Positions 18,629 through 31,190 of a stretch of 64,000 bases of DNA are shown one piece after another. This stretch comes from Klebsiella phage iPHaGe-KPN-11i: the sequence record OR637327.1; one strand, 5' to 3'. The notes below the pieces were generated by a model. It had not been told where the DNA came from and searched no databases. It was given only the letters and a program-made list of their open reading frames with translations. The translations under genes and the position numbers were made by a program. Each line of letters opens with the position of its first letter. Within the stretch, counting starts at the first letter, position 1.

Positions 18629-19621
18629 TTAGAATTCGAAAATAATACTGACTTCTTCGGTCTGATCAGGAGAACGAATAATCGGTTGACGGTTTTCCAT
18701 GTAGATCATTTGCCCTGAGTCAAGTTCAAGCTGTTCTTTCGTGTAATACTGCCCCGTTGCTTTTACTTCTGGATCGGTCGGTTGCGCCTTTTTCAGCAAC
18801 GGGTTTACAATTACACTAACCTGACGGAATCCACGGTTGCCAGGTAAAGATGCTTGCGGGAAGAACAGGGAATCCATGTACGCACGGAATCGCATTGAGT
18901 GAACCTTCATTCGGAACACCAAATCATACATATCTGGATACCACTTGATCACGTTGTCATAACCCCAGCGAACCGGATCTTCTTCGAGTTCATTCGGGAA
19001 CGGAACAACGATATGTTCGTTCGTGCATCGGTTAATAACCACATCAGGCGGGATCGTGTAGAGATATTCCCAGATATAGCCGTCACCCATGTCGATACCG
19101 TTCGCTTCTCCGCGTGGAGGTTCGACCGATTCGTGGGTCGGCGTCCAAATGCCACCAATGCGCACACATTCAACTTTACCCGTGATACTGGAGATTGAGC
19201 AAGAACCAATATCAGGAACGTCCACAACGCGATACACCATCCATCCTTTACCGTAATCAGTACGGTTATAAGGAGCGGAGTTTACTACCACGATGTCATT
19301 AATGTAAAAGATTTTTGGGTTAGGATATCGAGTATCGCCCCAGTCTTTACGCGGAACGATTGCATCAATCATTTCGCCTGGTACTTTCGTCATCCCGATC
19401 ATATGCGTCCACATATCAACGATACCATCTGTATCATCGTTAGGATAAGGGGGCGCGAATTCAGGATCGGATTCGTTATCCGCCCATTGTTCAGTACGCC
19501 CGATCGACATATAGATCGAGTTATGATCGGGGTCATCCCCGATCATTTCGCGAAAGTTCATCATGTTTTCCGTGCGGAACTTACCAGTTACAACCGCACG
19601 GTAGATGTTTTGTTGAGCCAT
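18629..19621 (-). CDS. gp8: baseplate wedge protein gp8
   Basis: YRAVVTGKFRTE.M.NF...DMWTHM.G..KV...RKDWGDTRYP.P..F.INDIVV.NSAPYN, DGYIWEYL..IPPDV.INRCTNE.IVVP are near-identical blocks to T4 gp8. Confidence 0.95.
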   Translation of the reverse strand: MAQQNIYRAVVTGKFRTENMMNFREMIGDDPDHNSIYMSIGRTEQWADNESDPEFAPPYPNDDTDGIVDMWTHMIGMTKVPGEMIDAIVPRKDWGDTRYPNPKIFYINDIVVVNSAPYNRTDYGKGWMVYRVVDVPDIGSCSISSITGKVECVRIGGIWTPTHESVEPPRGEANGIDMGDGYIWEYLYTIPPDVVINRCTNEHIVVPFPNELEEDPVRWGYDNVIKWYPDMYDLVFRMKVHSMRFRAYMDSLFFPQASLPGNRGFRQVSVIVNPLLKKAQPTDPEVKATGQYYTKEQLELDSGQMIYMENRQPIIRSPDQTEEVSIIFEF

Positions 19622-22600
19622 TATGCTACCTTTCTCTGAGTCGGTGGATTCGGATCGCGAGGATTACCCGCGTCGTCTTTCAATCGTTTTTCCACTAAGT
19701 TACGGAACTGAGAGTATTTAACCGCAGAACTATCGAACAGAGGACTTTGATCAAATCGACGCGCGGAAGGTAATACACCATTCAGCGGTTGTTCTTCAAC
19801 GTCATATTCTGGTGGAACATCGAACGGTTGCCCCGCTTTAGGGTGTGGTTCGTATAATGCTTCGCCTGTTACGAGGTCAAATGTCTGGTTTCCGTTACCG
19901 TCCAGACGGGCTACACGATCAGGCCAATACTTCGGATAACCGCTATCGAAGCGATAGTTTCGAAGAATATCAATGATCGTTTCGCTATGTGTCATAGACA
20001 AACCGGAGTTAATGAACACCGTTAACATGGTGATCCCGATAAAACCAAAGCCTACCGGATGCACGAATCGTAAAACGTCATCCTTATATCGTGACGCTGG
20101 CAGATTCGAACGAATTTTCATCACATAGTATGAACGCCCACGGTTGAAATAGTCGATCGAGTTGTTCGCCATTTGCTTACCACGCACACCGCGCAGAATA
20201 GTTCCCGTGAAGTTAGTCTTTTCAGACTTGACAACCTGCCCTTCAAGGAAGTTCCCGATCACGTTATGCAGAGTCATTGACCAGCGTAATTGACCGTCAT
20301 CATACTGGCGTTCGATATACGTCACGTTTGCTCTTGCAGTTGGTGTGTAAATCGTCCGGCCTACGATGTCCTGACTAATATTCGTTGACTGAACCAGAAT
20401 ATCATATTCCAGAGTGTTCGAACTTTCGATTTCTACGGTTACATCTTCGTTATACAGCAATTTGAACAGGAATTTATAGCTTGCTTCGATGCCTTTCGTT
20501 GAGTAAAAATCACTGCAACGAGATTCAAAGAAACGTACCACTTGATCGCGCTTCGTTTTATCCAGGTAGATATTACGGCGGTTTACTTCCGACCACAGAT
20601 ATTCTACGCTGTTCTTCTCACGCGGATATTTGTTCCTGATCAGGTTCAGCAGCTTGTTATAGTAGGTGTTTTCACCCAGCGAAACGAACTGCAAATAATA
20701 TTCACCGAACTTCTCAAAATATTGCTGATCCAGATAGCTTTGAGGCGCAAAGCGCGTAATCATATGGCTTAAATCTGGGTCAATCAAACCAGGTGACAGA
20801 TCCGGTGTATACGGTTTTTCGCGTTCCTGCTGAATCAGATCGGCAATCAGCAACGTGTTATCTGGTTTCCAGAAAATAGTTAAGCTGTCACGGGCGCGAT
20901 AACTCAATTCAAAGAACCCAATGATTTCGCCTGAACTCTTATACAACAACACACCGTTCGTATACTTCGTGAATCCGGTAAACTTAATGTTGTTAATGTA
21001 AATCGTAACATGTCCGCGATCCCATACCTCTTTGTTCACACGAAGCGATGACGAAGGGCCAGCACTATCGGTTACAAGGCTGTAGGTGATTTTCGGATAC
21101 ACCACCAGAGGACGGTTATCATTAGTGATCCATGTGCGCACAGAGTCGCGGAAGAACCAGCTATAGTTCGCCTCGTTGTAGTATTCCTGCGCACCAAATT
21201 TCCAAACAGTCGGGTCGTCGATATGAGCGCGAATCGTCGCAAAGTTAATCGCAAGGCTGGCAGTATAGCCAGGACGCAAATCATATTTTACAGCACCAAC
21301 CAGTGCAGGGTTCTCGATCAATAATTCAGGATCGGGAAGTGTGCCTGGATATTTGTAGTTCGCTACGGAAATAAAAATCTCCGTGCCGTTCGTTGACATA
21401 TTGGTGTATTCATGCTGGATATAAAAACGTTCTTCCTCGGTGTTCCCATACAGGCGCACAAAGGTTTTCGTGTTTTCTTGCCATTGATACACACCAGCAG
21501 CAGCGGACGGAACCACGTTAGCGGGTTTTGTAGGATCTTGCAGAGCGGTTTTCACTTCACCCGTTACGAGTGCATAGAGAATACCATCCATCACATCCAT
21601 TTTCTTGACAACGATCTTATCATTTCCAGGGACAACTGTATAGCTGTCAGTATCGAAAATCTTTTCTCCGAACGTTGGAGAACTCGGATCGGTGTCGATC
21701 GGTGTCTGTTTCAGTGCGATACGACGCACAACGTTTTTAGCAACCACATAGAGCCAGTCATCGGAACATGCCATTGCTTCTGCATATTTCGATACGTTAC
21801 CAGGCAGTTTAGCAAATGTGTTGTATGAGTCCACATCGAAATCAAGGCCAGTCTGGTTCCCCAGTTTGGCAAACGTAACGTCATCAGCAGAGAATCGCAC
21901 ATCGTCCGCAGACCAGCGAATATCAGTTGAGGTGCGCCCGTAGAAGATACGATCGTAACCCAGTACATATGTTGTGTTTCGGCTTTGGTACGCAATAGAG
22001 CGCGATACAGGGTTTCCTACGCGGTCGTTAAACGCCTTGTAGTAATGCCATGTTTGTCCTTTGTCGTTTGACACCTTCGCCATGTTCTGAAAACGTTCAA
22101 ACAGGTACAATAAACCGTTTGACGCTACCAGGAAAGTTCTGTTAATGTCATTACAAACGTGTTCAATATGATCCTGGATTTCGTGATAGTTTTCTTGTGT
22201 AAGAATTTTATCGCTGATCTGGGATACGTCAGTGTAAAGTGGAGAAAACACAAAGTCTTCTTTCATCAACGCTGCCATTACCACATCTGTATTAAAGTTA
22301 ACGTAGTTCTGATTATTTTTTGCGAATTTCTCGTTTATGAATGCATCGCTTGGCGTAAATTCACGCATGGTTGAATATGCGTAAGCGTTAAGGGTAAACG
22401 TCCAGAGTTCATCGGTATAAACCCAGTCAGACGGTTCAAAGCCCTTGTGCGTAACCATGACGCGGAACTTGTAAAAATTGTTGGGCTGAACATCGGAAGA
22501 AAACCATTCGTTTACATAAGCATAACCCAACTGGAACCAGGTTAAATCTTCATCTGGAATAGTTACACCACCTACCCCGCGAGTTTCTGCCATTTCCACG

Positions 22601-22713
22601 ACATAGTAAAAATCCATGCCGACGCTATCCCACTTCAAATAAACGAAGTTAGCAGCCAGTTTATCAACGCGCAAACTGGTAATTGACGGCGCTTTAATCA
22701 TATGTTTCTCCAA
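19621..22713 (-). CDS. gp7: baseplate wedge initiator gp7
   Basis: At 1030 aa it is collinear with T4 gp7 (1032 aa): KAPS.TSLR..KL.AN...WD.VG..FYY.VE.AET, VKVSNDKGQTW, GRKSTD.RWSADDVRFS..D.TFAKLG, STKGIEASYKFLFK.LYNE.V..EIES, FVHPVGFGFI.IT.LT.FIN.GL. Confidence 0.95.
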   Translation of the reverse strand: MEKHMIKAPSITSLRVDKLAANFVYLKWDSVGMDFYYVVEMAETRGVGGVTIPDEDLTWFQLGYAYVNEWFSSDVQPNNFYKFRVMVTHKGFEPSDWVYTDELWTFTLNAYAYSTMREFTPSDAFINEKFAKNNQNYVNFNTDVVMAALMKEDFVFSPLYTDVSQISDKILTQENYHEIQDHIEHVCNDINRTFLVASNGLLYLFERFQNMAKVSNDKGQTWHYYKAFNDRVGNPVSRSIAYQSRNTTYVLGYDRIFYGRTSTDIRWSADDVRFSADDVTFAKLGNQTGLDFDVDSYNTFAKLPGNVSKYAEAMACSDDWLYVVAKNVVRRIALKQTPIDTDPSSPTFGEKIFDTDSYTVVPGNDKIVVKKMDVMDGILYALVTGEVKTALQDPTKPANVVPSAAAGVYQWQENTKTFVRLYGNTEEERFYIQHEYTNMSTNGTEIFISVANYKYPGTLPDPELLIENPALVGAVKYDLRPGYTASLAINFATIRAHIDDPTVWKFGAQEYYNEANYSWFFRDSVRTWITNDNRPLVVYPKITYSLVTDSAGPSSSLRVNKEVWDRGHVTIYINNIKFTGFTKYTNGVLLYKSSGEIIGFFELSYRARDSLTIFWKPDNTLLIADLIQQEREKPYTPDLSPGLIDPDLSHMITRFAPQSYLDQQYFEKFGEYYLQFVSLGENTYYNKLLNLIRNKYPREKNSVEYLWSEVNRRNIYLDKTKRDQVVRFFESRCSDFYSTKGIEASYKFLFKLLYNEDVTVEIESSNTLEYDILVQSTNISQDIVGRTIYTPTARANVTYIERQYDDGQLRWSMTLHNVIGNFLEGQVVKSEKTNFTGTILRGVRGKQMANNSIDYFNRGRSYYVMKIRSNLPASRYKDDVLRFVHPVGFGFIGITMLTVFINSGLSMTHSETIIDILRNYRFDSGYPKYWPDRVARLDGNGNQTFDLVTGEALYEPHPKAGQPFDVPPEYDVEEQPLNGVLPSARRFDQSPLFDSSAVKYSQFRNLVEKRLKDDAGNPRDPNPPTQRKVA

Positions 22714-22741: not shown

Positions 22742-22770
22742 AGCAAACAAAAAACCCCTGCCAAATGACA
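22742..22770 (-). terminator. intrinsic terminator between genes 6 and 7 (minus strand) plus late-promoter-like TATAAGTA
   Basis: The minus strand reads AACCCCTGTCATTTGGCAGGGGTTTTTTG, followed by ..GGATATAAGTAAAAC upstream of gene 7. Coordinates are approximate. Confidence 0.6.
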
Positions 22771-22781
22771 GGGGTTGTAAA

Positions 22782-24698
22782 TTATTGACTGATTGGATTC
22801 ATCGTCAACGTTGTATATTGAGGACGTAGATCGTTTTCAAATACAATCAGAGAACCATCACGGGTGAAAATGTTCTCTTCCAGAGGTGTACCAGTCAGTT
22901 CGATGTAAGCAGCGCTGAATCGCTCGGATGGAACGTTCAGGACACCAAGATCGAAACTAATGAAATCATTAAAATGTTCCACATAGCCGACTTCGTAATA
23001 TTTATCACGATCGGTTACTCCAGGATATTTATCAAAATCGTTTCCTGTATAGGCTGCGATACCGATATCACCGTTTTTGAATGGCCCGATAACCATTTTC
23101 GCGAGTCCGGTCGTGGTGTTCATATCTGTTGACGCATAGCGCACATCATACGAATCACCAGCAGCATTTGTGTACTTGAACCCATTCGAAACAACAGAAC
23201 GTGATTTCACCTGGTTTAAGAAGTGAATACCAGACATCGGGGCGCTGTAATAGTTATCCAGTTCACGCAATAGCTGAATAGTCGCAGAAGAACCAATGAT
23301 CGACACGTCCGCGTTATCAACATAAGTCAACATCTTGGATTTACTGAAAGATTTGTTGAAAATTTCAACGTTATCTGTGTAGTATCTGTCAATTTCATTG
23401 ATTACTTGACCACGCAACCATTCCTCAGACTCGATCAACTTACTGATATCATACGTTACTTTAACGCTTTGTACAATATACAGGTAGTTCGGGTCAAGGA
23501 TCGACGGCGTAATAGTCGCCAGGTTATACTTCGCCAGATAGTTTTGCATGTCCTCTTTTTGAACAGAGGTTAAGCGCAACCCTGATTTCGGTTTAACAGC
23601 GATGAACGCATAGCCAGGTTTTTCTTTATCAGTAAAGCACTGAACCGCCTGAATAACAGAACCGAAACGGTGAGACAGGAACGATTCATAATCCGATGCA
23701 GTAACACAACGGCGCTGTGTCTCACGCATAATAGGCGCGAGTTCACGAATACGTTCGATATCTTCCGGTTCACCACCACCATCAGCGCCTACATAGTCCG
23801 CTGAATCAGTCGGGTTCTCAACAATATTCGTAATGCTAATGTTTGTCAACGTATCCACGTAGACAAAGTTTTCAGCACCGTTTGCTTCTTCTCCGTTGGT
23901 TGAAATATATTCAATAACAACGGTTGAACCGTTTGCAGGTTTCAAGCCACCGATGTAATCCGCAGTCAGAGCACCACCTGCGACCTGTTGGCTGGTTTCG
24001 CCTTCACCAAAGTAAACTTCGGTATGTCCATCCACAGTTTCACGCATGTAGAAAATTGTTGATGCGCCCGTTGCGTTTACGATACTTTCGTTTGTCCAGT
24101 CATCCCATTGAGCGCCGTTGACAGTAACGCGAACCTGACTACGGTCGATGTTAGGATCTCGAATCAGGATCGTAGAACCATCAAAGATGACTTCGGTACG
24201 GACTAAACGCCCCTGTACGATGTTCAACATCGAAACATAGTTATTGTCTTTATCACGAACAATCACCACGTCATCGGATACGACGAACGGGAAACTGTTT
24301 GTTTCTTTCACTGTACCAATGAATTTCGTACCGCGTGGAATACGGATCGATGTCGGGTTCAGTGGGTTCTTCGCAGTGATCAGGATCGCAGTATTTGCAG
24401 CGGTACGGGAGTCCGGCATATAGCCCAAATCCTGAGCCTGTTGGACAACAGAACTACGCAATGCAGCGGTACGAATAAACGATTCGAACAGTGCGGTGTT
24501 ACTCATTTGCTGAATGTACAGTGTACAGTATGATAACAGATCCACAAGTACGTTCATGCGCGAGCCGGAGAAATCATAATCCTTGAATTCGTCCTGACCT
24601 CGGAGCCAGTTGATTAAGTCAGATTTGATTTCGTCAAAAGTAGCCCCGACAAAGATATCGGGGATCTGATTAATTTGCTTACGAGTTGTAGCCATCAT
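22782..24698 (-). CDS. gp6: baseplate wedge protein gp6
   Basis: Size (638 aa vs 660 in T4) and position between gp5.x and gp7. Confidence 0.85.
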   Translation of the reverse strand: MMATTRKQINQIPDIFVGATFDEIKSDLINWLRGQDEFKDYDFSGSRMNVLVDLLSYCTLYIQQMSNTALFESFIRTAALRSSVVQQAQDLGYMPDSRTAANTAILITAKNPLNPTSIRIPRGTKFIGTVKETNSFPFVVSDDVVIVRDKDNNYVSMLNIVQGRLVRTEVIFDGSTILIRDPNIDRSQVRVTVNGAQWDDWTNESIVNATGASTIFYMRETVDGHTEVYFGEGETSQQVAGGALTADYIGGLKPANGSTVVIEYISTNGEEANGAENFVYVDTLTNISITNIVENPTDSADYVGADGGGEPEDIERIRELAPIMRETQRRCVTASDYESFLSHRFGSVIQAVQCFTDKEKPGYAFIAVKPKSGLRLTSVQKEDMQNYLAKYNLATITPSILDPNYLYIVQSVKVTYDISKLIESEEWLRGQVINEIDRYYTDNVEIFNKSFSKSKMLTYVDNADVSIIGSSATIQLLRELDNYYSAPMSGIHFLNQVKSRSVVSNGFKYTNAAGDSYDVRYASTDMNTTTGLAKMVIGPFKNGDIGIAAYTGNDFDKYPGVTDRDKYYEVGYVEHFNDFISFDLGVLNVPSERFSAAYIELTGTPLEENIFTRDGSLIVFENDLRPQYTTLTMNPISQ

Positions 24699-25372
24699 GG
24701 TTTCCTATATTTGCAGTTGTCGAAATGAAACCTCACCATATTTCCTTTGCTGTTACTTTCTAACCCGCAATATGGACATTTGATGATTGGCTGATTTTTA
24801 ATAGCCTCACTAAGTTTCTTTCTTTTTTCGATTGATGGAGAAGGTAACTTTTTACCCAGAGTAGGAGGTGTTTGTCTCTTCCGTGACTCAGACATTTTCT
24901 GTTTCGTCTCCTGAGTATGTTTATATCCTTTCTTCGATTCAGACATTTTCTGTTTCGTTTCCTGAGTATGCGTTTTCCCTTTACGTCCTTCAGCTATGCG
25001 TTTTCTTCGTTGTTCTGTACAAGGCTTTCCGTATAATGGATGTAATTTCCCAGAAAACAATATACTTCTTTCATTGGCTACCCGTTTTTTGGCTAACTCA
25101 TATATTCGAGAAGTAGGGACAACGCCTTTCGCGCTACTTGATCCACGCCCACACATCATAGCAACAGCAAACCACATCTTACCACCATGTATACGAGCGA
25201 GTAAAAGATGCGCAACGAAATGTTCTCTCGCTGTCAAATACACCATATTATCAAAATCATCACTACCGCCCATAGATTTAGGAATGATGTGATGATGTTC
25301 CTTATATCCGTCTTTAAGCGGAGTTTTCCTCCGCTTATCTATAAGAGCTTTATATATCCTATCGTAATTCAT
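24695..25372 (-). CDS. free-standing HNH homing endonuclease with tandem NUMOD3 DNA-binding repeats
   Basis: It has the HNH core (EHHHIIPKSMGG...FDNMVYLTAREH) and two near-identical repeats (KTHTQETKQKMSESKKG / KHTQETKQKMSESRKR). It is inserted between gene 6 and the gene-5 region, and its stop overlaps the gp6 start. Confidence 0.85.
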   Translation of the reverse strand: MNYDRIYKALIDKRRKTPLKDGYKEHHHIIPKSMGGSDDFDNMVYLTAREHFVAHLLLARIHGGKMWFAVAMMCGRGSSSAKGVVPTSRIYELAKKRVANERSILFSGKLHPLYGKPCTEQRRKRIAEGRKGKTHTQETKQKMSESKKGYKHTQETKQKMSESRKRQTPPTLGKKLPSPSIEKRKKLSEAIKNQPIIKCPYCGLESNSKGNMVRFHFDNCKYRKP

Positions 25373-25395: not shown

Positions 25396-27483
25396 TTAGT
25401 ATTGAACCATAGGGACGCAAACACTAATTGAACCGAATGTGATCGCGAGTCCGATTAATGACAATAATTTGTTTACGTATTGAGTTACCTTACTTAGAGC
25501 AAGCGTACAAATCTGGTTATAAATCACCTTGCATGTGTCCTTAAACGAGCGGGAACTGTCAACAAAGTTTTTATATAGCGATTGTGCGCCCGTCAGCGCG
25601 TTCTCATACGTTTTTAACAGGTCATCGAATGCAACCCCACAGTAACCTAAGAACTGGTTAATCTGAGCCATTACAGGCAGTTTCTTGAGTTCATCCATTG
25701 CCATGCTGTAGGTGTCTTTCATCCCATTTTGCAGATTAGCAATCTGTGCTTTGATTCCCTCATATGCGGCCTTAGTCGCATTCACAGCAGCGTTAGCGGC
25801 ATCAAGTGCAGCCTGATAAGCAGCAGTCGTTGCTTCCTTTACAGGTTCCCACATCCAGTTTAGGTACTGATCGAATTTACGTTTAATCGAATCCCTTTCC
25901 TGTGTCTGTGCTTTCAGGGTTTTGAATAATTCTTGTCCCTGATCATACAGTGCGGAGATCTGCGCATAGGATGCGTCAATGAACGCTTTCACTTTCGCTT
26001 GTGCTTGCTGATACAGATCCATTGCTGTAAACCCTGGGAAGTTACCGCCCAGAATCACATCAAGAGGTTTAATCTGTTTCATGATGTTACGGATAGCCAG
26101 CACCGCAGACCAAAGCGGGTTTGGTGTTTCTGGAGGCATTGACCAGATCTGCATCATGCGCCCGTACAAATCTACCAAAGCAACGCAACCGTTTTGGAAC
26201 ATAGTCAAACACCAGTCAAATAACGCGCTACAAGCGTCTACAAGGTCGCGAGCGCCAGCCTTGACATATTCAACGGCGTAGTTGTAAGAACTGCCTATAG
26301 CCCCGTATATTGCGTTTATGACGCTTTCATACGTCTGTGCGCCGGAATCAATCAGAGCCTGGAAAGAATCTTTCAGGGATTGAACCGAACTATCACCAAA
26401 CACCAGATCGTAAATGTTGATCGCAACACCCATGATCGCAACAGTCGGGAGGAAATTCTTGATCAAATCCCACGCCCCGCCCACGATGTTAAACGCAGAG
26501 CTAATGATCTGTCGGAATACCTTCATTGCGGTTTGCCATGCTTGCTGTGACAATGCAAGAGCACCCGCTGTGATTTCTTCCATCCCGATCGAAAGCCCGT
26601 CAAACATCGTCGCAATGCCCTTACCGTTCTTAATCGTACCCGTCAGCATATCAAAAGCCAGCTTGAACGTTTTACGAGTCTCGTTCCACGCAGACAGCAT
26701 AGCATCACTGATATTTGTATACGGGAACCCTACGGTCGCCGGAATACAGCCCAATCCAGAACGAGCAGAAAATAATCTGGCTTCACTCGGTAGCGCCCCA
26801 TACGTTGACGGGAGAGCAGGAGGAACCGGAGGAATGCTGGTATCTGCGTTCGTGTTTACTGACATCCCTGTATATTTGCACTGGTGCGCGGGGGATTCGT
26901 CGTGTTTCATGTACGCAATACGATTACCATTCCAGTAATAATCAATGCTGGTAAACGCGCCTGTAGTCTGATTGTATACCTGTCGGATTCGCTGATCGCA
27001 ACGGGGACCAGAAGTCAGCAAATAACCACCGGAGTTTTCCACCTTGTACATCGCGAGTTCGCCAGGGTTCTTGAACAGATTCGCTTTTGACAGATCCGCC
27101 CCATACCAGTCATTACCCGCGAGCTTAGTAGCCCCGATAGATTCGATATAGGCATCAATATCCGCTTGAGTGGCGAAATAATAACCAATCTTCGTAACCA
27201 AAATGTCAGTAGAAACTCCAGGGCTTCCATCTGGATTTGTGGGTACGTTTGGAGAGTTCACCACCGGAAGCGGATCGCTTTTCTGCCCGAAAGGGGAACT
27301 CATATACAGGTGAGTTCCGATCGGGATGATTTCGGTCGCCCATTCTACCCCAACAGCGGGGTAATTTTCTGTGTGTCCCTGCCAGATAACGCGTCGGTAA
27401 TATCCAGCGGGGATCTCAGCATCGCAAGGATGCTGAAAATTTTGCATAATCCCATCAATGATGGTTTCATAATCCATGATCAT
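25396..27483 (-). CDS. 695-aa protein of unknown function in the gp5.4 (spike-tip) position; helical C-terminal half with hydrophobic/TM-like helices
   Basis: It starts 3 nt after the gene-5 stop (ATGATCATGA overlap). I recognise no T4 homologue, and it has no PAAR-like G/A-rich repeats. The C-terminal ~450 aa is A/Q/L-rich and predicted alpha-helical, with hydrophobic stretches (PTVAIMGVAINIYDLVF, LLSLIGLAITFGSISVCVPMV). Confidence 0.75.
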   Translation of the reverse strand: MIMDYETIIDGIMQNFQHPCDAEIPAGYYRRVIWQGHTENYPAVGVEWATEIIPIGTHLYMSSPFGQKSDPLPVVNSPNVPTNPDGSPGVSTDILVTKIGYYFATQADIDAYIESIGATKLAGNDWYGADLSKANLFKNPGELAMYKVENSGGYLLTSGPRCDQRIRQVYNQTTGAFTSIDYYWNGNRIAYMKHDESPAHQCKYTGMSVNTNADTSIPPVPPALPSTYGALPSEARLFSARSGLGCIPATVGFPYTNISDAMLSAWNETRKTFKLAFDMLTGTIKNGKGIATMFDGLSIGMEEITAGALALSQQAWQTAMKVFRQIISSAFNIVGGAWDLIKNFLPTVAIMGVAINIYDLVFGDSSVQSLKDSFQALIDSGAQTYESVINAIYGAIGSSYNYAVEYVKAGARDLVDACSALFDWCLTMFQNGCVALVDLYGRMMQIWSMPPETPNPLWSAVLAIRNIMKQIKPLDVILGGNFPGFTAMDLYQQAQAKVKAFIDASYAQISALYDQGQELFKTLKAQTQERDSIKRKFDQYLNWMWEPVKEATTAAYQAALDAANAAVNATKAAYEGIKAQIANLQNGMKDTYSMAMDELKKLPVMAQINQFLGYCGVAFDDLLKTYENALTGAQSLYKNFVDSSRSFKDTCKVIYNQICTLALSKVTQYVNKLLSLIGLAITFGSISVCVPMVQY

Positions 27484-27485
27484 GA

Positions 27486-29252
27486 TTAACCTACCTGGAC
27501 TGTTCCGCCAGTGATCTTAGTCAGTGCGCCGGAATCAATGAAAGTATTATTCGATGCTCGCATGTTGATATTACGTGCGCCAATATCCAAATCTTGCTCA
27601 ATATCAATCAGAGCATTTTTTGCGGTAATTGTTGCATCCTCAGTTACGGCAACGGTTGCATTCTGTTTAACGTTAGCCATTAAATTCTGATTCACGTTTA
27701 CGGTTGCATCTTTTTCAACGGTTAATTCTGCGTTGCCTTTAATCAGCCCCACATATTCACCTTCAACGGTTTGATTCACGTTACCGCGCACGAACTCGGT
27801 CACGTTACCATCAACGGTCTGTTGAACGTTACCCATATTGTAAATGAATGCGTCACCTTCGATAACGACCTGTAAATTACCCTTGACGTTTAATTTACGG
27901 CCCTGCATGACGATTTGATAATCATCACCGACAATTTTAACAACACGGGTTCCATCAGGGCGAATTTCTTCGTATGATCCTGCTGGGTGAACACGGTTAT
28001 AACGTTCAAAGCCTGGGGTATCGTCGAATTCCTGAATGTGTCCAGAACGCGATTCAAATACCATGTTATATGGATATTCAGCGTTGTATGCTGATTTAGG
28101 TTCTTCGAACATTACGCGAGTATCACCAGGAACAAACGGATCTTCTGGGTTGCTTGCTTGCAGAACTACCCCATTATAAGCAGCACTTAGCGATCGCCCT
28201 TCTGGATCTGGAACCTGAACACCATATGATTCAAGGTTGCCCGTCAGCACGATTTTAGATACGCGTGAAGAACGTCCTGGTGTCTGGTTAGCCCATGTTG
28301 AGTTTCGCAGTTCGTTATATGCGGTTTGCCAGTCCTGACGCTTCATAGCAGCCAGAGCTTTCGTAAATTTCGCGACACCACCAACACCCATCTGGAATGA
28401 CATATTTTCGATTGCCATTTGACGAGGACGGTTTAGCGTCACATACACTTCCCGAACTTTGCTATTATTCTGAATATCGTTATGAACTTTAGCTAAATCC
28501 TGCTGAAATAAAACACTCGCTTCATCAGCAGTGATTGATCCAGGAACACCAGTAACCGTTCTGCCAATTTGTCTAGATAACGCAGCGTTAACAACTGCTG
28601 GGTCTGTTCCTTGTGGTGCGGTCAAGAAAAAGTGTCCGATCCCGATGGTATAACCTTTAACATCATAATACCACGTCAATCTAATACCTTCATCACCACG
28701 GATCATTTTTTCTATCGTAAACCCACCAGTATCAGGTCGGTTATCTTCTGGAATCTCGTCCAATGGGCGATCGTCTGGGTTGACTGCTAATGAACTGTTT
28801 GCATCACGGATAGTGACGCTCGAAGAACCGCGCCCTTCTGCGCCACCGCGAGCCAGAACGTTAACATCGTTACCCACATAACGAGGATACTCACCAAACG
28901 GGTCACAGAAACCTTTCTGGGTGTCCGGTTTCTCTCGGTACTCACCAGCAAAGGTTCCCAGTATAACGCCGTCCTGGTGCCATTTATCGCGCCAGTAACC
29001 GATAACGAAACTACCGCGCGTGATACCAGTCGGAGAAAAACCAACACCGGAAATAGCGGCGCTGCGAATATCCTGAATAGGCATCATCCACGGCAATTCC
29101 TCAACCGGAATACCGATAGTTTCAGATTTTTGTTTCTGTGCCGGATGCTCACCAAATACACGCACCTGAACACGCCCCAGTAGACGAGGATCATCAACGT
29201 TTTCGACCACCCCCTCAAAGAAAGGGGAATGCATATTTCCACCGAATTTCAT
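27486..29252 (-). CDS. gp5: baseplate hub / cell-puncturing device with lysozyme domain gp5
   Basis: The N-terminal OB domain (FEGVVENVDDPRLLGRVQVRVFGEHP) matches T4 FVGVVEDVMDPSLIGRVRIRVVGLHP. There is a T4-lysozyme-like middle domain (DEGIRLTWYYDVKGYTIGIGHF) and a C-terminal beta-helix of VxGNxxxxV repeats. Confidence 0.93.
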   Translation of the reverse strand: MKFGGNMHSPFFEGVVENVDDPRLLGRVQVRVFGEHPAQKQKSETIGIPVEELPWMMPIQDIRSAAISGVGFSPTGITRGSFVIGYWRDKWHQDGVILGTFAGEYREKPDTQKGFCDPFGEYPRYVGNDVNVLARGGAEGRGSSSVTIRDANSSLAVNPDDRPLDEIPEDNRPDTGGFTIEKMIRGDEGIRLTWYYDVKGYTIGIGHFFLTAPQGTDPAVVNAALSRQIGRTVTGVPGSITADEASVLFQQDLAKVHNDIQNNSKVREVYVTLNRPRQMAIENMSFQMGVGGVAKFTKALAAMKRQDWQTAYNELRNSTWANQTPGRSSRVSKIVLTGNLESYGVQVPDPEGRSLSAAYNGVVLQASNPEDPFVPGDTRVMFEEPKSAYNAEYPYNMVFESRSGHIQEFDDTPGFERYNRVHPAGSYEEIRPDGTRVVKIVGDDYQIVMQGRKLNVKGNLQVVIEGDAFIYNMGNVQQTVDGNVTEFVRGNVNQTVEGEYVGLIKGNAELTVEKDATVNVNQNLMANVKQNATVAVTEDATITAKNALIDIEQDLDIGARNINMRASNNTFIDSGALTKITGGTVQVG

Positions 29253-29803
29253 AGATTCGCCTTTTCCATTTCCTTGATATAATCGCTTACGAACGATTGA
29301 ATATCAGAGGGGTTAATAATCTTGATGGTTCGTTTTGCTTCATTTTGAAGCACTGCATCTTCATAAATATCTACAGGGACTAATGTTCCCTGGTACTGCA
29401 AATAACGCATGTTCTTATCGCCTTTGTCATACCAATGACCGGGATTCGTAGGGTCTTCAACCAAATTGTAATAACGGTTGCCCTTACCATCCATATGATA
29501 AAGAACTTGTTCACCACCTGCTTTTGAATAACGCTGGATAGCGCATTGATAAGCCGTTTCCTGATCGGTAATCCATCCGTAAAACGGATCGTAATTATCG
29601 TTAAGCATCAGGATAACCCAGTAGTATTGCTGGTTTCCGTATAGCGTTTCCGCTAATTGTTCGGGTCTTAATGAACCTGTCAGTTGATATGTACGTGGCT
29701 TATAATTCCTGATCACGCGGTTAAAGTAAAAACGATAATCGCGGTAGATATCAGTAGTTGGTGTGCCTTTGTAATCAACTGGTGGAAAGAACGAAAATAA
29801 CAT
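29249..29803 (-). CDS. gp53: baseplate wedge protein gp53
   Basis: MLFSFFPPVDY...RTYQLTGSLRPEQLAETLYGNQQYYWVILMLNDNYDPFYGWIT is similar to T4 gp53. Confidence 0.9.
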   Translation of the reverse strand: MLFSFFPPVDYKGTPTTDIYRDYRFYFNRVIRNYKPRTYQLTGSLRPEQLAETLYGNQQYYWVILMLNDNYDPFYGWITDQETAYQCAIQRYSKAGGEQVLYHMDGKGNRYYNLVEDPTNPGHWYDKGDKNMRYLQYQGTLVPVDIYEDAVLQNEAKRTIKIINPSDIQSFVSDYIKEMEKANL

Positions 29804-29846: not shown

Positions 29847-30314
29847 ATGGCTGGAAGACAGACATACAAGGGGTCTTTTATGCCCCAGAACATACAGAAA
29901 TATAAGGGAGACCCGCGAAAGATAACGTATCGTTCAAGCTGGGAAAAATATATTATGAACTGGCTTGATAAAAACCCGCATGTGAAACGCTGGAACAGTG
30001 AAGAGGTTGTGATCCCTTATTTCAGCAACGCAGACGGAAAGCGACGGCGCTACTTCATGGATTTCTATGTTGAAATGGATAACGGTGTGACCTACCTTTG
30101 GGAAGTCAAACCGATGAAAGAAACGTTGCCCCCACCTAAGCCAGCGAACAACAACGTTCACAACAAAAAGAAATTTGTTGATGCGCTGTATACTTATGCG
30201 GTAAACATTGACAAATGGAAAGCCGCGAATGCAGCAGCAAAACAAAAGGGCTGGGAGTTCAAGATCATCACAGAGGACACATTGAAACGTGTGTTCGGAT
30301 GGAAAGGGCAATAA
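29847..30314 (+). CDS. gp4: head completion protein gp4
   Basis: The MAGRQTYKG start, the ~150 aa size and the position divergent from gene 53 match T4 gene 4 (gp50/65-family head completion protein). Confidence 0.75.
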   Translation: MAGRQTYKGSFMPQNIQKYKGDPRKITYRSSWEKYIMNWLDKNPHVKRWNSEEVVIPYFSNADGKRRRYFMDFYVEMDNGVTYLWEVKPMKETLPPPKPANNNVHNKKKFVDALYTYAVNIDKWKAANAAAKQKGWEFKIITEDTLKRVFGWKGQ

Positions 30315-30317
30315 ATA
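30310..30317 (+). promoter_or_regulatory. late-promoter-like AATAAATA box upstream of gene 2
   Basis: GGGCAATAAATACCCTAAACGGAGGGAATTATG is 7/8 to TATAAATA and lies about 20 nt upstream of the ATG. Confidence 0.4.
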
Positions 30318-30335
30318 CCCTAAACGGAGGGAATT

Positions 30336-31190
30336 ATGAGTTTTATTTTTGAGTTCGAGATCATCGCAGAAGAAGACAAGCCAAAACCGCCACCGAAGCG
30401 AAAGCTGGGTGAATGGGTTGAACTTGGTATCAAATTCCGACGCGCAAAATTAAAAGGCATGACAGCCAAAAAGTTCGCGGACGAAAACGGGATTGCATAC
30501 GCAACGTTCACAAAGTCTATGCACCGCTACAAGCAGCAGATTGATGATGAAATCGAACGCCGTACAGCAGAAACCGAAGCCCGACGCAAACGTAACGACT
30601 ATCGCAAAAAACACGCGGTTGATATCGTAAACGATTTCCGAAACAGTTTGAAGAAAATGACTGTTGGTGTAACCGCTGCGAAACGTCAGAAGGATTCGAC
30701 CGATTGGTTTGGTGATTTCATCAAAACCAGCATTAAGACGCACAGGGTTGCGAAACCAGCAACGGGTCGCTTGTATACGTTCATCTACGATGCGAAATAC
30801 AAAGACACCCTGCCATACTGGGATCGGTTCCCGCTGATCATTTTCCTGGGTTCAGGACGTTCGAAAGCGGGTAACTTGGTTCTTTACGGGCTGAACTTGC
30901 ACTATGCGCCACCGCGAGCACGTCAAGAGTTTTTAGAAGAACTCCTGAAACGTGGCTACGGATCAACAGATCGACTTTCTAACAAAACCAGACTGAAAAT
31001 CAACTGGAACAACGTGAAGGGAATGCGCGGGGCTGATCAAATGATCAAAGCCTATCTGCCAGCCCATCTACGTTCACCACTTGCAGAGATCGCCCCAAAA
31101 GATTGGGCGAAAGCAGTTTGGTTGCCTACACAGGCTTTCCAGTCCAAAGGAAAACCATACAGCGCGAAGAAAGTTTGGAACAGATATTAA
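30336..31190 (+). CDS. gp2: DNA end-protector protein gp2
   Basis: Position between genes 4 and 3, the size (284 vs 274 aa) and a basic N-terminal region match T4 gp2. Confidence 0.75.
   Translation: MSFIFEFEIIAEEDKPKPPPKRKLGEWVELGIKFRRAKLKGMTAKKFADENGIAYATFTKSMHRYKQQIDDEIERRTAETEARRKRNDYRKKHAVDIVNDFRNSLKKMTVGVTAAKRQKDSTDWFGDFIKTSIKTHRVAKPATGRLYTFIYDAKYKDTLPYWDRFPLIIFLGSGRSKAGNLVLYGLNLHYAPPRARQEFLEELLKRGYGSTDRLSNKTRLKINWNNVKGMRGADQMIKAYLPAHLRSPLAEIAPKDWAKAVWLPTQAFQSKGKPYSAKKVWNRY

What the first reader, a model, noticed from the sequence alone, without database searches (positions are those of the whole stretch)
25396..27483. Large non-T4 protein in the baseplate spike-tip (gp5.4/PAAR) slot
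In T4 the locus between gene 5 and gene 6 holds small genes, including gp5.4, the PAAR protein that caps the gp5 beta-helix. Here the gene-5 stop is followed 3 nt later by a 695-aa ORF. I see no PAAR-like ORF anywhere between genes 5 and 6. The 695-aa protein has a ~230-aa N-terminal domain and a ~450-aa helical A/Q/L-rich C-terminal half that ends in a hydrophobic, TM-like helix. The T6SS analogy (PAAR or VgrG tips carrying toxin or membrane-active cargo) suggests a virion-delivered, possibly membrane-inserting, ejected protein or spike-tip cargo.
Basis: partly seen in the sequence, partly recalled or inferred. Interest (0 to 1): 0.8.

Follow-up and report, generated by a model that had tools for sequence, protein, structure and literature searches.

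The report
Large non-PAAR phage spike-tip protein
This 695-residue gene, which sits just after the tail-spike gene of an RB43-like T4 relative, most likely encodes a large protein unrelated to PAAR that caps the spike in place of T4's small tip protein; the idea has been published for RB43, but no experiment has yet shown what the protein does.

Summary
The ORF is real: window 25396..27483, minus strand, 695 aa, starting 2 nt after the gene 5 stop. Gene 6 follows, after an inserted homing endonuclease. The window is a GAP161/RB16/RB43-like Pseudotevenvirus. The protein is 80% identical to RB43 orf205w. A 2025 preprint from the Leiman and Belin groups proposes orf205w as the RB43 spike tip, based on a larger tip density in a 17.7 A cryo-EM map. 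A 2026 paper makes the same proposal for phage Helios gp203. The central idea is therefore already in print, though it remains unproven.

My tests agree with it.
- I found no gp5.4 or PAAR and no gp5.1 in the window or in the complete GAP161 genome.
- Across 14 phages, the last ~60 residues of gp5 follow the type of tip gene, not the phylogeny of the rest of gp5.
- The swapped unit is the end of gene 5 plus the tip gene(s).

The spike-tip reading is supported; the membrane-inserting or cargo reading is not. No virion proteomics were found.

The parts
25396..27483 (-). 695-aa ORF: putative spike-tip protein of the RB43 orf205w / phrog_5296 family
   Evidence: ORF listing. Full-length phrog_5296 match, 1272 bits. 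80.6% identical to RB43 orf205w and 99.6% to Klebsiella phage phi1_146002. AF2 model with pLDDT 88.4.
26659..27483 (-). N-terminal alpha/beta domain, residues ~1-275, with invariant C20, R30, W48 and the NDWYGADLSK motif at 124-133; no known fold
26482..26586 (-). Core helix 1 (residues 300-334) of a three-helix bundle formed by a single chain
   Evidence: AF2 secondary structure. Matches the Helios gp203 'triple coiled-coil core' segment 287-327 (PMC13611949).
26143..26256 (-). Core helix 2 (residues 410-447)
   Evidence: Mean conservation 0.69. Corresponds to Helios gp203 398-440.
25684..26025 (-). Long, variable, A/Q-rich helical hairpin (residues 487-600). It is the least conserved part and the source of the spurious 'tape measure' hits.
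   Evidence: Helices 487-541 and 550-600. Conservation 0.48. The tape-measure PHROG, SMC and apolipoprotein-like matches mostly fall on or overlap this hairpin.
25456..25557 (-). Core helix 3 (residues 643-676), the most conserved segment (IYNQICTLALSKVTQWVNKLL)
   Evidence: Conservation 0.79-0.84.. Corresponds to Helios gp203 631-670.
25399..25467 (-). Hydrophobic C-terminal segment (residues 673-695): helix end, a loop rich in Pro and Gly, then a beta-strand at 685-694. Not a conserved TM helix.
   Evidence: KD19 of 2.04. E, P or PP inside the segment in homologues. Beta-strand in the AF2 model.
27486..29252 (-). Gene 5: baseplate hub, tail lysozyme and beta-helical spike (588 aa)
   Evidence: Pfam Gp5_OB 6.7e-62, Phage_lysozyme and Gp5_C; phrog_430 3.5e-222.
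27489..27668 (-). Last ~60 codons of gene 5: the tail of the beta-helix, whose sequence is specific to the tip type and ends in ...IDSGALTKITGGTVQVG
   Evidence: In 14 gp5 proteins, identity in this tail is 47% among phages with the big gene, 44% among PAAR-type phages and 22% between the two groups (maximum 29.5%). Identity in the rest of gp5 ignores tip type. Breakpoints are mapped.
27484..27500 (-). Junction of gene 5 and the tip gene: AGGTAGG Shine-Dalgarno-like run, TAA stop, 2-nt spacer, ATG (suggests translational coupling)
   Evidence: Sequence read directly. No TATAAATA late-promoter match between the two genes.
24695..25372 (-). HNH/NUMOD3 homing endonuclease inserted between the tip gene and gene 6. 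It is a passenger, not part of the spike.
   Evidence: Pfam NUMOD3 3e-15 and HNH 2.7e-05; phrog_655 1.1e-60. Absent at this position in GAP161 and present in RB16.
22782..24698 (-). Gene 6, baseplate wedge: the downstream boundary of the slot
   Evidence: Five Gp6 Pfam domains. In SP18 versus Kosakonia phage 305, the first 50 residues of gp6 are back to 90% identity.

Best explanation
The 695-aa protein is the spike-tip protein of this RB43/GAP161-type T4 relative. Probably one copy sits on the blunt C-terminal end of the trimeric gp5 beta-helix, in the position that gp5.4 (PAAR) holds in T4. It replaces both small genes 5.1 and 5.4 without being related to either.

Proposed architecture: a conserved three-helix bundle made from a single chain (helices 300-334, 410-447 and 643-676) continues the threefold axis of the spike. 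A family-specific N-terminal alpha/beta domain and a variable helical hairpin about 80 A long complete a tip much larger than PAAR.

Proposed action: the gene is probably translated together with gene 5 late in infection, and the protein is built into the baseplate hub. On sheath contraction it is the first part of the virion driven into the outer membrane. It reaches the periplasm with gp5 and leaves with the spike so that the tube opens.

Shown here:
- The gene's position and its 2-nt spacing from the gene 5 stop.
- Family conservation across several genera.
- Absence of any PAAR/gp5.4 or gp5.1 in the closely related GAP161 genome.
- Strict co-variation of the gp5 tail with the type of tip gene.
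- No detectable similarity to gp5.4, gp5.1 or tape measure proteins.

Taken from the literature: RB43 virions carry a larger tip density, and AlphaFold complex models place the bundle on the last gp5 strand.

Inferred only: that the density is this protein, the 1:3 stoichiometry, and the role in penetration.
For: Synteny:
- Gene 5 is followed directly by this gene and then gene 6 in Pseudotevenvirus, Slopekvirus, Gaprivervirus, Dhakavirus, Bragavirus, Morganella and Providencia phages.
- A divergent 764-aa member in a metagenome contig also follows the gp5 C-terminus.
- All six gp5.4-bearing loci examined instead carry a 5.1-like gene plus 5.4 next to gene 5; five have them between genes 5 and 6, and the Aeromonas SW69-9 locus is rearranged.

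No alternative tip protein:
- tblastn with gp5.4 and gp5.1 finds nothing in the window or the 178-kb GAP161 genome.
- A Pfam scan of 148 GAP161 ORFs of 70-190 aa finds no PAAR_motif or DUF4280.
- hmmsearch --max with gp5.4 and gp5.1 profiles over all six-frame ORFs gives a best E of 0.9; positive controls score 1e-56 to 1e-79.

Module co-variation:
- The gp5 body of SP18 and WG01 is 66-74% identical to T4 and Kosakonia phage 305, and 45-47% to the RB43-type phages (window, RB43, KP1).
- In the last ~60 residues, identity is 47% within the big-gene group and 22% between groups, with no overlap.
- Breakpoints lie about 80-90 codons before the gene 5 stop and at the start of gene 6.

Structure: a confident, compact model (pLDDT 88.4, pTM 0.79), with the most conserved segments in the bundle.

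Literature:
- PMC12407873: RB43, RB16 and Lw1 lack gene 5.4, and a 17.7 A cryo-EM map shows a larger tip 'possibly encoded by orf205w'.
- PMC13611949: an AF3 model of the gp5 trimer with Helios gp203.
Against: - No direct evidence shows that the protein is in the virion. I found no proteomics for any member. The one T4-like proteome I checked (Morganella MP1, PMC5384007) reported neither gp5 nor its neighbouring genes, so it is uninformative.
- The preprint authors could not produce a complex of the RB43 protein with a gp5 beta-helix fragment, and they call their own AlphaFold model low-confidence.
- The cryo-EM map is 17.7 A with C6 symmetry imposed, so the density cannot be assigned to a chain.
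- I could not run a complex prediction.
- Co-variation shows co-inheritance, but it could also arise from simple linkage within one recombination cassette.
- The whole-genome PAAR check was done on GAP161, not on the window's own complete genome. For the Tevenvirinae members I checked only the locus.
Confidence: 0.7

Rival explanations
1. Delivered membrane-active protein. The protein rides on or in the spike and, once in the periplasm, unfolds its helical hairpins and inserts into the inner membrane. There it forms or primes a conduit for DNA, or acts as a toxin-like effector in the way of T6SS PAAR/VgrG cargo. This could coexist with the tip role.
For: - The C-terminal 19-mer is hydrophobic (KD 2.04), and a second segment at 344-362 has KD 1.78.
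- The published P2 experiments place the spike in the periplasm after infection, and the same is inferred for T4-type spikes (PMC12407873).
Against: - Both hydrophobic segments carry conserved charged residues or prolines in homologues. AF2 builds them partly as beta-strands in a compact fold.
- Pfam, NCBIfam and PDB searches find no toxin, enzyme or pore-forming family.
Confidence: 0.12
2. Non-virion assembly factor. The protein helps fold or cap the RB43-type gp5 beta-helix, or helps assemble the hub, and is not retained in the particle. The larger tip density in RB43 would then come from something else.
For: - No member has virion proteomics on record.
- The gene co-varies with the gp5 tail, which a dedicated chaperone would also do.
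- T4 has several non-structural assembly factors for hub and fibres (gp51, gp57A; established knowledge).
Against: - RB43 virions do carry extra tip mass, and no other candidate gene lies in the slot.
- At 77 kDa, with full-length conservation and a rigid-looking compact fold, it is large for a chaperone of a ~60-residue tail.
- In T4 the corresponding slot encodes a structural tip protein (PMC12407873).
Confidence: 0.12
3. Second tape measure or tail-lumen protein, as several GenBank records annotate it ('tail length tape measure protein').
For: - Weak matches to 11 PHROG tape-measure families, with E from 1e-11 to 3.5e-3.
- Some records carry that label.
- The deep HMM search reaches real tape measure proteins at E 2e-6 to 5e-5.
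Against: - In the deep search the matches lie only in the A/Q-rich coiled-coil region of those proteins, not in their PhageMin_Tail domain.
- The closely related GAP161 genome has its own 582-aa protein in the gp29 slot, between gp28 and gp48. hhalign of the family against it gives probability 1%.
- The AF2 model is a compact multi-helix fold with pTM 0.79, not an extended rod.
- The gene lies in the spike slot, not the hub or tube-initiator cluster.
Confidence: 0.03

Closest known systems
RB43 orf205w and Helios gp203 (phrog_5296): putative spike-tip protein of RB43-like Straboviridae (Mattenberger et al., bioRxiv 2025, PMC12407873; Viruses 2026;18:942, PMC13611949)
   Same: Same family: 80.6% identity to RB43 orf205w over the full length. 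It shares the slot after gene 5, a length of ~690 aa, the layout of an N-terminal alpha/beta region followed by a helical region, and the three core helices.
   Different: Nothing substantive. The window's copy is followed by an HNH homing endonuclease that RB43 and GAP161 lack. My AF2 model with a 44-sequence alignment is high-confidence (pLDDT 88.4), whereas the preprint calls its own model low-confidence.
T4 gp5.4 and T6SS PAAR-repeat proteins (PF05488; PDB 4KU0, 4JIV)
   Same: Same genomic slot and, by inference, the same position and job: a single asymmetric protein that caps the blunt end of a trimeric beta-helical spike and leads membrane penetration.
T4 gp5.1 (conserved partner gene of 5.4; function unknown)
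   Same: It is replaced together with 5.4. Every gp5.4 locus examined also has a 5.1-like gene. The Helios paper speculates that the large protein is a structural analogue of a gp5.1-gp5.4 complex.
   Different: hhalign probability 0.11%. No evidence that gp5.1 is in the T4 virion.
Phage P1 UpfB alpha-helical tripod on the PAAR protein UpfC (PDB 9VZK, as cited in PMC13611949)
   Same: An alpha-helical extension at the distal end of a myovirus spike, with a terminal loop.
   Different: In P1, three copies of a separate helical protein sit on a true PAAR. Here a single chain replaces PAAR altogether. I did not test the similarity directly; it is taken from the paper.
Phage tape measure proteins (PhageMin_Tail and the tape-measure PHROGs)
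   Same: A/Q/L-rich long helices give weak profile matches.
   Different: The resemblance is compositional only, and there is a separate protein in the gp29 slot.

Membership tests
RB43 orf205w / phrog_5296 family | Full-length sequence match to the family profile | tested here: met
   phrog_5296: E = 0, 1272 bits, residues 3-695 against profile positions 1-685 of 685. 80.6% identity to RB43 orf205w.
RB43 orf205w / phrog_5296 family | Position immediately downstream of gene 5 and upstream of gene 6, with no 5.1 or 5.4 genes | tested here: met
   The window adds only a homing endonuclease.
RB43 orf205w / phrog_5296 family | Physical location at the tip of the gp5 spike in the virion | not testable with these tools
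   Known only from the 17.7 A RB43 map and AlphaFold fits in the literature. My indirect support is the co-variation of the gp5 tail.
PAAR-repeat proteins (PF05488) / T4 gp5.4 | PAAR motifs or a match to the family profile | tested here: not met
   No PF05488 at E <= 0.1. hhalign against a six-sequence gp5.4 profile gives probability 0.04%.
PAAR-repeat proteins (PF05488) / T4 gp5.4 | Small conical beta-structure fold | tested here: not met
PAAR-repeat proteins (PF05488) / T4 gp5.4 | Binds the blunt C-terminal end of a trimeric beta-helix spike as a monomer | not testable with these tools
Published AF3 models suggest such binding.
Tape measure proteins | Tape-measure domain (for example PhageMin_Tail) or homology to the phage's own gp29 | tested here: not met
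   No tape-measure Pfam domain. hhalign against the GAP161 gp29-slot protein gives probability 1%. Weak hits lie only in coiled-coil regions.
Tape measure proteins | Encoded in the hub / tube-initiator cluster as the only such gene | tested here: not met
   GAP161_095 occupies the slot between gp28 and gp48. This gene lies between genes 5 and 6.
T6SS-type spike cargo or effector (toxin domain fused to the tip) | Recognisable toxin or enzymatic domain | tested here: not met
   No significant Pfam, NCBIfam or PDB sequence match and no specific fold match.
Alpha-helical pore-formers / T3SS translocators | Conserved hydrophobic transmembrane hairpin | tested here: inconclusive

The most novel reading that the evidence does not exclude
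The large tip is more than a passive point. After it is driven through the outer membrane, its variable ~80 A helical hairpin and hydrophobic C-terminus rearrange to engage or insert into the inner membrane, or bind an inner-membrane or periplasmic host protein as T4's tip contacts PpiD. It would thereby set up the site where the tube docks for DNA transfer. That would make it a phage spike tip with a post-penetration function, exchangeable between lineages as a cassette together with the matching end of gp5.
Probability: 0.1. Interest if true: 0.75.

Novelty: already known. Interest (0 to 1): 0.35.

Why it matters
PAAR cones are treated as the near-universal tip of contractile injection systems, so a 77-kDa, mostly helical tip unrelated to PAAR shows that this position can be filled by an entirely different fold. 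Working out how a single asymmetric chain mates with a threefold beta-helix, and what the extra mass does during envelope penetration, bears directly on how T4-like phages cross the outer membrane. The family occurs in many therapeutic candidate phages of Klebsiella, Enterobacter and Cronobacter. In T4, gp5.4 determines infection of hosts with truncated LPS, so the type of tip may influence host range and resistance. The cassette-like exchange of the end of gene 5 together with the tip gene is a clear case of modular evolution inside a single structural protein. None of this is new in principle: the proposal is already published. The value of this work is independent comparative support and correction of the 'tape measure' annotations.

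Tried and rejected
Rejected after tblastn, a Pfam scan of 148 concatenated small ORFs and six-frame profile searches of the window and the whole GAP161 genome.
- **Fusion or remote homologue of gp5.1 plus gp5.4.** Rejected: hhalign probabilities 0.11% and 0.04%.
- **Tape measure.** Rejected.
- **More distant relatives.** The profile search of 1.84 billion representatives found only 8 full-length representatives plus fragments.
- **Virion proteomics.** Six literature searches found no dataset for a phage with this gene. The Morganella MP1 proteome lists neither gp5 nor its neighbours. PMC13119998 concerns Jiaodavirus, which carries gp5.4. PMC9960720 used mass spectrometry only for bacterial typing.
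- **Tools unavailable.** The AFDB50 fold library was not on the machine.
- **Late promoter.** No T4 late-promoter consensus (TATAAATA) lies near the gene, so the promoter of the gene 53-5-tip-6 unit was not identified.
Full report
**Observation.**
The ORF exists exactly as stated: window 25396..27483, minus strand, 695 aa, ATG start. Its neighbours are securely identified by Pfam and PHROGs:
- gp53 at 29249..29803.
- gp5 at 27486..29252 (Gp5_OB 6.7e-62, lysozyme, Gp5_C repeats).
- An HNH/NUMOD3 homing endonuclease at 24695..25372.
- gp6 at 22782..24698.
- gp7 at 19621..22713.

All lie on the minus strand. The gene 5 stop (TAA) is separated from the ATG by 2 nt. An AGGTAGG Shine-Dalgarno-like run lies inside the end of gene 5. 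No late-promoter consensus lies between the two genes. A strong terminator-like hairpin follows gene 6. The gene therefore looks like part of the gene 53-5-X-6 structural unit.

**Source and distribution.**
The window is a Pseudotevenvirus: 98.9% nucleotide identity to Cronobacter phage GAP161 and 91.9% to RB16 across this locus.

The protein matches phrog_5296 ('unknown function') end to end. tblastn finds it in 216 phage records:
- 99.6% identity in Klebsiella phage phi1_146002.
- 80.6% in RB43.
- About 79% in Slopekvirus.
- 54% in Morganella phage vB_Mm5.
- 41-44% in SP18, WG01, Proteus phiP4-3 and Providencia PSTCR6.

The large protein database holds 52 clusters, nearly all 668-717 aa (one truncated at 580 aa). 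An exhaustive profile search of 1.84 billion representatives adds only two more divergent full-length members plus fragments. One of these, 764 aa long, sits in the order gp5 C-terminus, X, gp25, gp6, gp7, gp8 in a metagenome contig. This is a narrow family specific to T4-like phages and conserved over its full length (alignment A1).

**Prior literature.**
The idea is already published.
- Mattenberger, Leiman, Belin and colleagues (bioRxiv 2025, PMC12407873) state that RB43, RB16 and Lw1 have no gene 5.4 orthologue. They report that the 5.1-5.4 locus is occupied by orf205w, about 690 aa, with residues 1-220 mixed alpha/beta and the rest helical.
- They report that orf205w 'can fit' that density. 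They also report that they failed to produce the complex and that their AlphaFold model was low-confidence.
- A 2026 paper (PMC13611949) identifies Helios gp203 as the same kind of protein. It shows an AF3 model of the gp5 trimer with gp203 in which a three-helix core (287-327, 398-440, 631-670) sits on the last gp5 strand. It states that the function has 'not been established experimentally'.

**Is there a PAAR protein elsewhere?**
- T4 gp5.4 and gp5.1 find nothing by tblastn in the window (best E 0.28, inside a 545-aa ORF).
- They find nothing in the complete 178,193-bp GAP161 genome, which I assembled from four fetches (best E 0.77).
- A Pfam scan of all 148 greedily chosen GAP161 ORFs of 70-190 aa gave no PAAR_motif and no DUF4280.
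- Profiles built from six diverse gp5.4 and six gp5.1 sequences (A4, A3) were searched with filters off against every six-frame ORF of at least 40 aa. The targets were the window, the GAP161 genome and eight loci carrying the large gene. The profiles recovered the positive controls at 1e-56 to 1e-79 and nothing else (best E 0.9).

**Own comparative test.**
I compared 14 gp5 proteins: 8 from phages with the large gene and 6 from phages with 5.1 plus 5.4.

Over the body of gp5, identity ignores tip type. SP18 and WG01 (Tevenvirinae) are 66-74% identical to T4, phi1_146043 and Kosakonia phage 305, but only 45-47% to the RB43-type phages (window, RB43, KP1). The window is closest to the PAAR-type Krischvirus phiS (59%).

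Over the last ~60 residues the grouping is strictly by tip type. Mean identity is 47% within the big-gene group, 44% within the PAAR-type group and 22% between them, with a between-group maximum of 29.5%. The terminal motifs differ...DSGxLTKITGGxVQVG against ...YTIDGSRIDIG.

Finer windows place the breakpoints:
- SP18 against Kosakonia phage 305: gp5 is 68-93% identical up to about SP18 residue 515, then 19-29%.
- The first 50 residues of gp6 are back to 90%.
- The window against phiS: 80-83% up to about residue 494, then 12-45%.

The exchanged unit is therefore the last ~80-90 codons of gene 5 plus the tip gene or genes. This is what one expects if the tip protein must match the end of the beta-helix. 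Linkage inside a single recombination cassette could contribute to the pattern as well.

**What the protein is not.**
- *Not PAAR.* Pfam finds no PAAR and hhalign against the gp5.4 profile gives probability 0.04%.
- *Not gp5.1.* hhalign probability is 0.11%.
- *Not a tape measure,* despite that label in several GenBank records and weak PHROG matches.
  - GAP161 has its own 582-aa protein in the gp29 slot, between gp28 and gp48.
  - hhalign of the family against that protein gives probability 1%.
  - The weak deep-search hits are true tape measure proteins matched only in their apolipoprotein-like coiled coil, not in the PhageMin_Tail domain.
- *No toxin, enzyme or defence-related family appears* in Pfam, NCBIfam or PDB sequence searches.

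**Structure.**
With the 44-sequence alignment, AF2 gives a confident compact model (pLDDT 88.4, pTM 0.79). Its elements are:
- An alpha/beta region at residues 1-275.
- Helices at 300-334, 410-447 and 643-676. These are the same three as the Helios 'triple coiled-coil core' and are among the most conserved segments (0.66-0.79).
- A long variable hairpin at 487-600 (conservation 0.48).
- A C-terminal beta-strand at 685-694.

In homologues it is interrupted by E, P or PP, and in the model it is partly beta-strand.

**Mechanism.**
The best-supported reading (confidence about 0.7) is a single-copy tip unrelated to PAAR. Its pseudo-threefold three-helix bundle caps the cognate gp5 beta-helix end, making a longer and bulkier spike point that leads outer-membrane penetration and leaves with the spike.

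Rival readings:
- A delivered membrane-active protein (about 0.12, and compatible with the tip role).
- A non-virion assembly factor (about 0.12).
- A tape measure (about 0.03).

The main gap is direct evidence of virion location. I found no proteomics for any member. The Morganella MP1 virion proteome lists neither gp5 nor the neighbouring genes, so it says nothing either way.

**Verdict.**
- Novelty: already known as a published hypothesis for an 80%-identical orthologue.
- This work adds independent negative searches for PAAR, the co-variation of the gp5 tail with tip type and the cassette boundaries. It also adds a high-confidence monomer model with no known fold, and evidence that the 'tape measure' annotations are compositional artefacts.

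Noticed in passing
window 24695-25372 (-): An HNH/NUMOD3 (Mob-like) homing endonuclease sits between the tip gene and gene 6. RB16 has it, but GAP161, phi1_146002 and RB43 do not. T4 carries a different homing endonuclease (GIY-YIG segC) in the same gene 5-gene 6 slot, so the slot is a recurrent landing site for such genes.
   Followed up: partly
window 29847-31190 (+); L002 13204-15181: GAP161 has a GIY-YIG Seg-like endonuclease between gp4 and gp2. In the window, gp4 (29847..30314) is followed directly by gp2 (30336..31190). The window's phage therefore differs from its closest relative mainly in homing-endonuclease content around the spike locus.
   Followed up: partly
window 27489-27750 (-) and loci L009, L015, L016: Gene 5 is mosaic. 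Its last ~80-90 codons switch phylogenetic affinity together with the downstream tip gene, and the start of gene 6 switches back. Homing endonucleases in the slot could drive this cassette exchange, but that is untested speculation.
   Followed up: yes
loci L003, L012-L016: Every gp5.4-bearing locus examined also carries a gp5.1-like gene of 150-190 aa next to gene 5, even where the order is rearranged (Aeromonas SW69-9). Both genes are lost together wherever the large gene is present. This suggests that gp5.1 works with the spike tip.
   Followed up: partly
window 22753-22776 (-): A strong intrinsic-terminator-like hairpin (10-bp stem, 6 GC pairs, T-run) lies between gene 6 and gene 7. It suggests that the gene 53-5-tip-6 unit ends here.
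   Followed up: no
GenBank records PP889458, PP889464, PQ657795, PQ657830, PP782000: Orthologues are annotated as 'tail length tape measure protein' or 'baseplate hub structural protein'. The tape-measure label looks like a coiled-coil compositional artefact.
   Followed up: yes
L004 10071-10352 (GAP161_018): A 93-aa ORF in the early region next to dexA is annotated 'tail protein'. It fell within the size range of the ORFs I scanned against Pfam, and no PAAR or tail-related family was reported in that chunk. I did not check whether my ORF picker selected it. The annotation looks doubtful.
   Followed up: no
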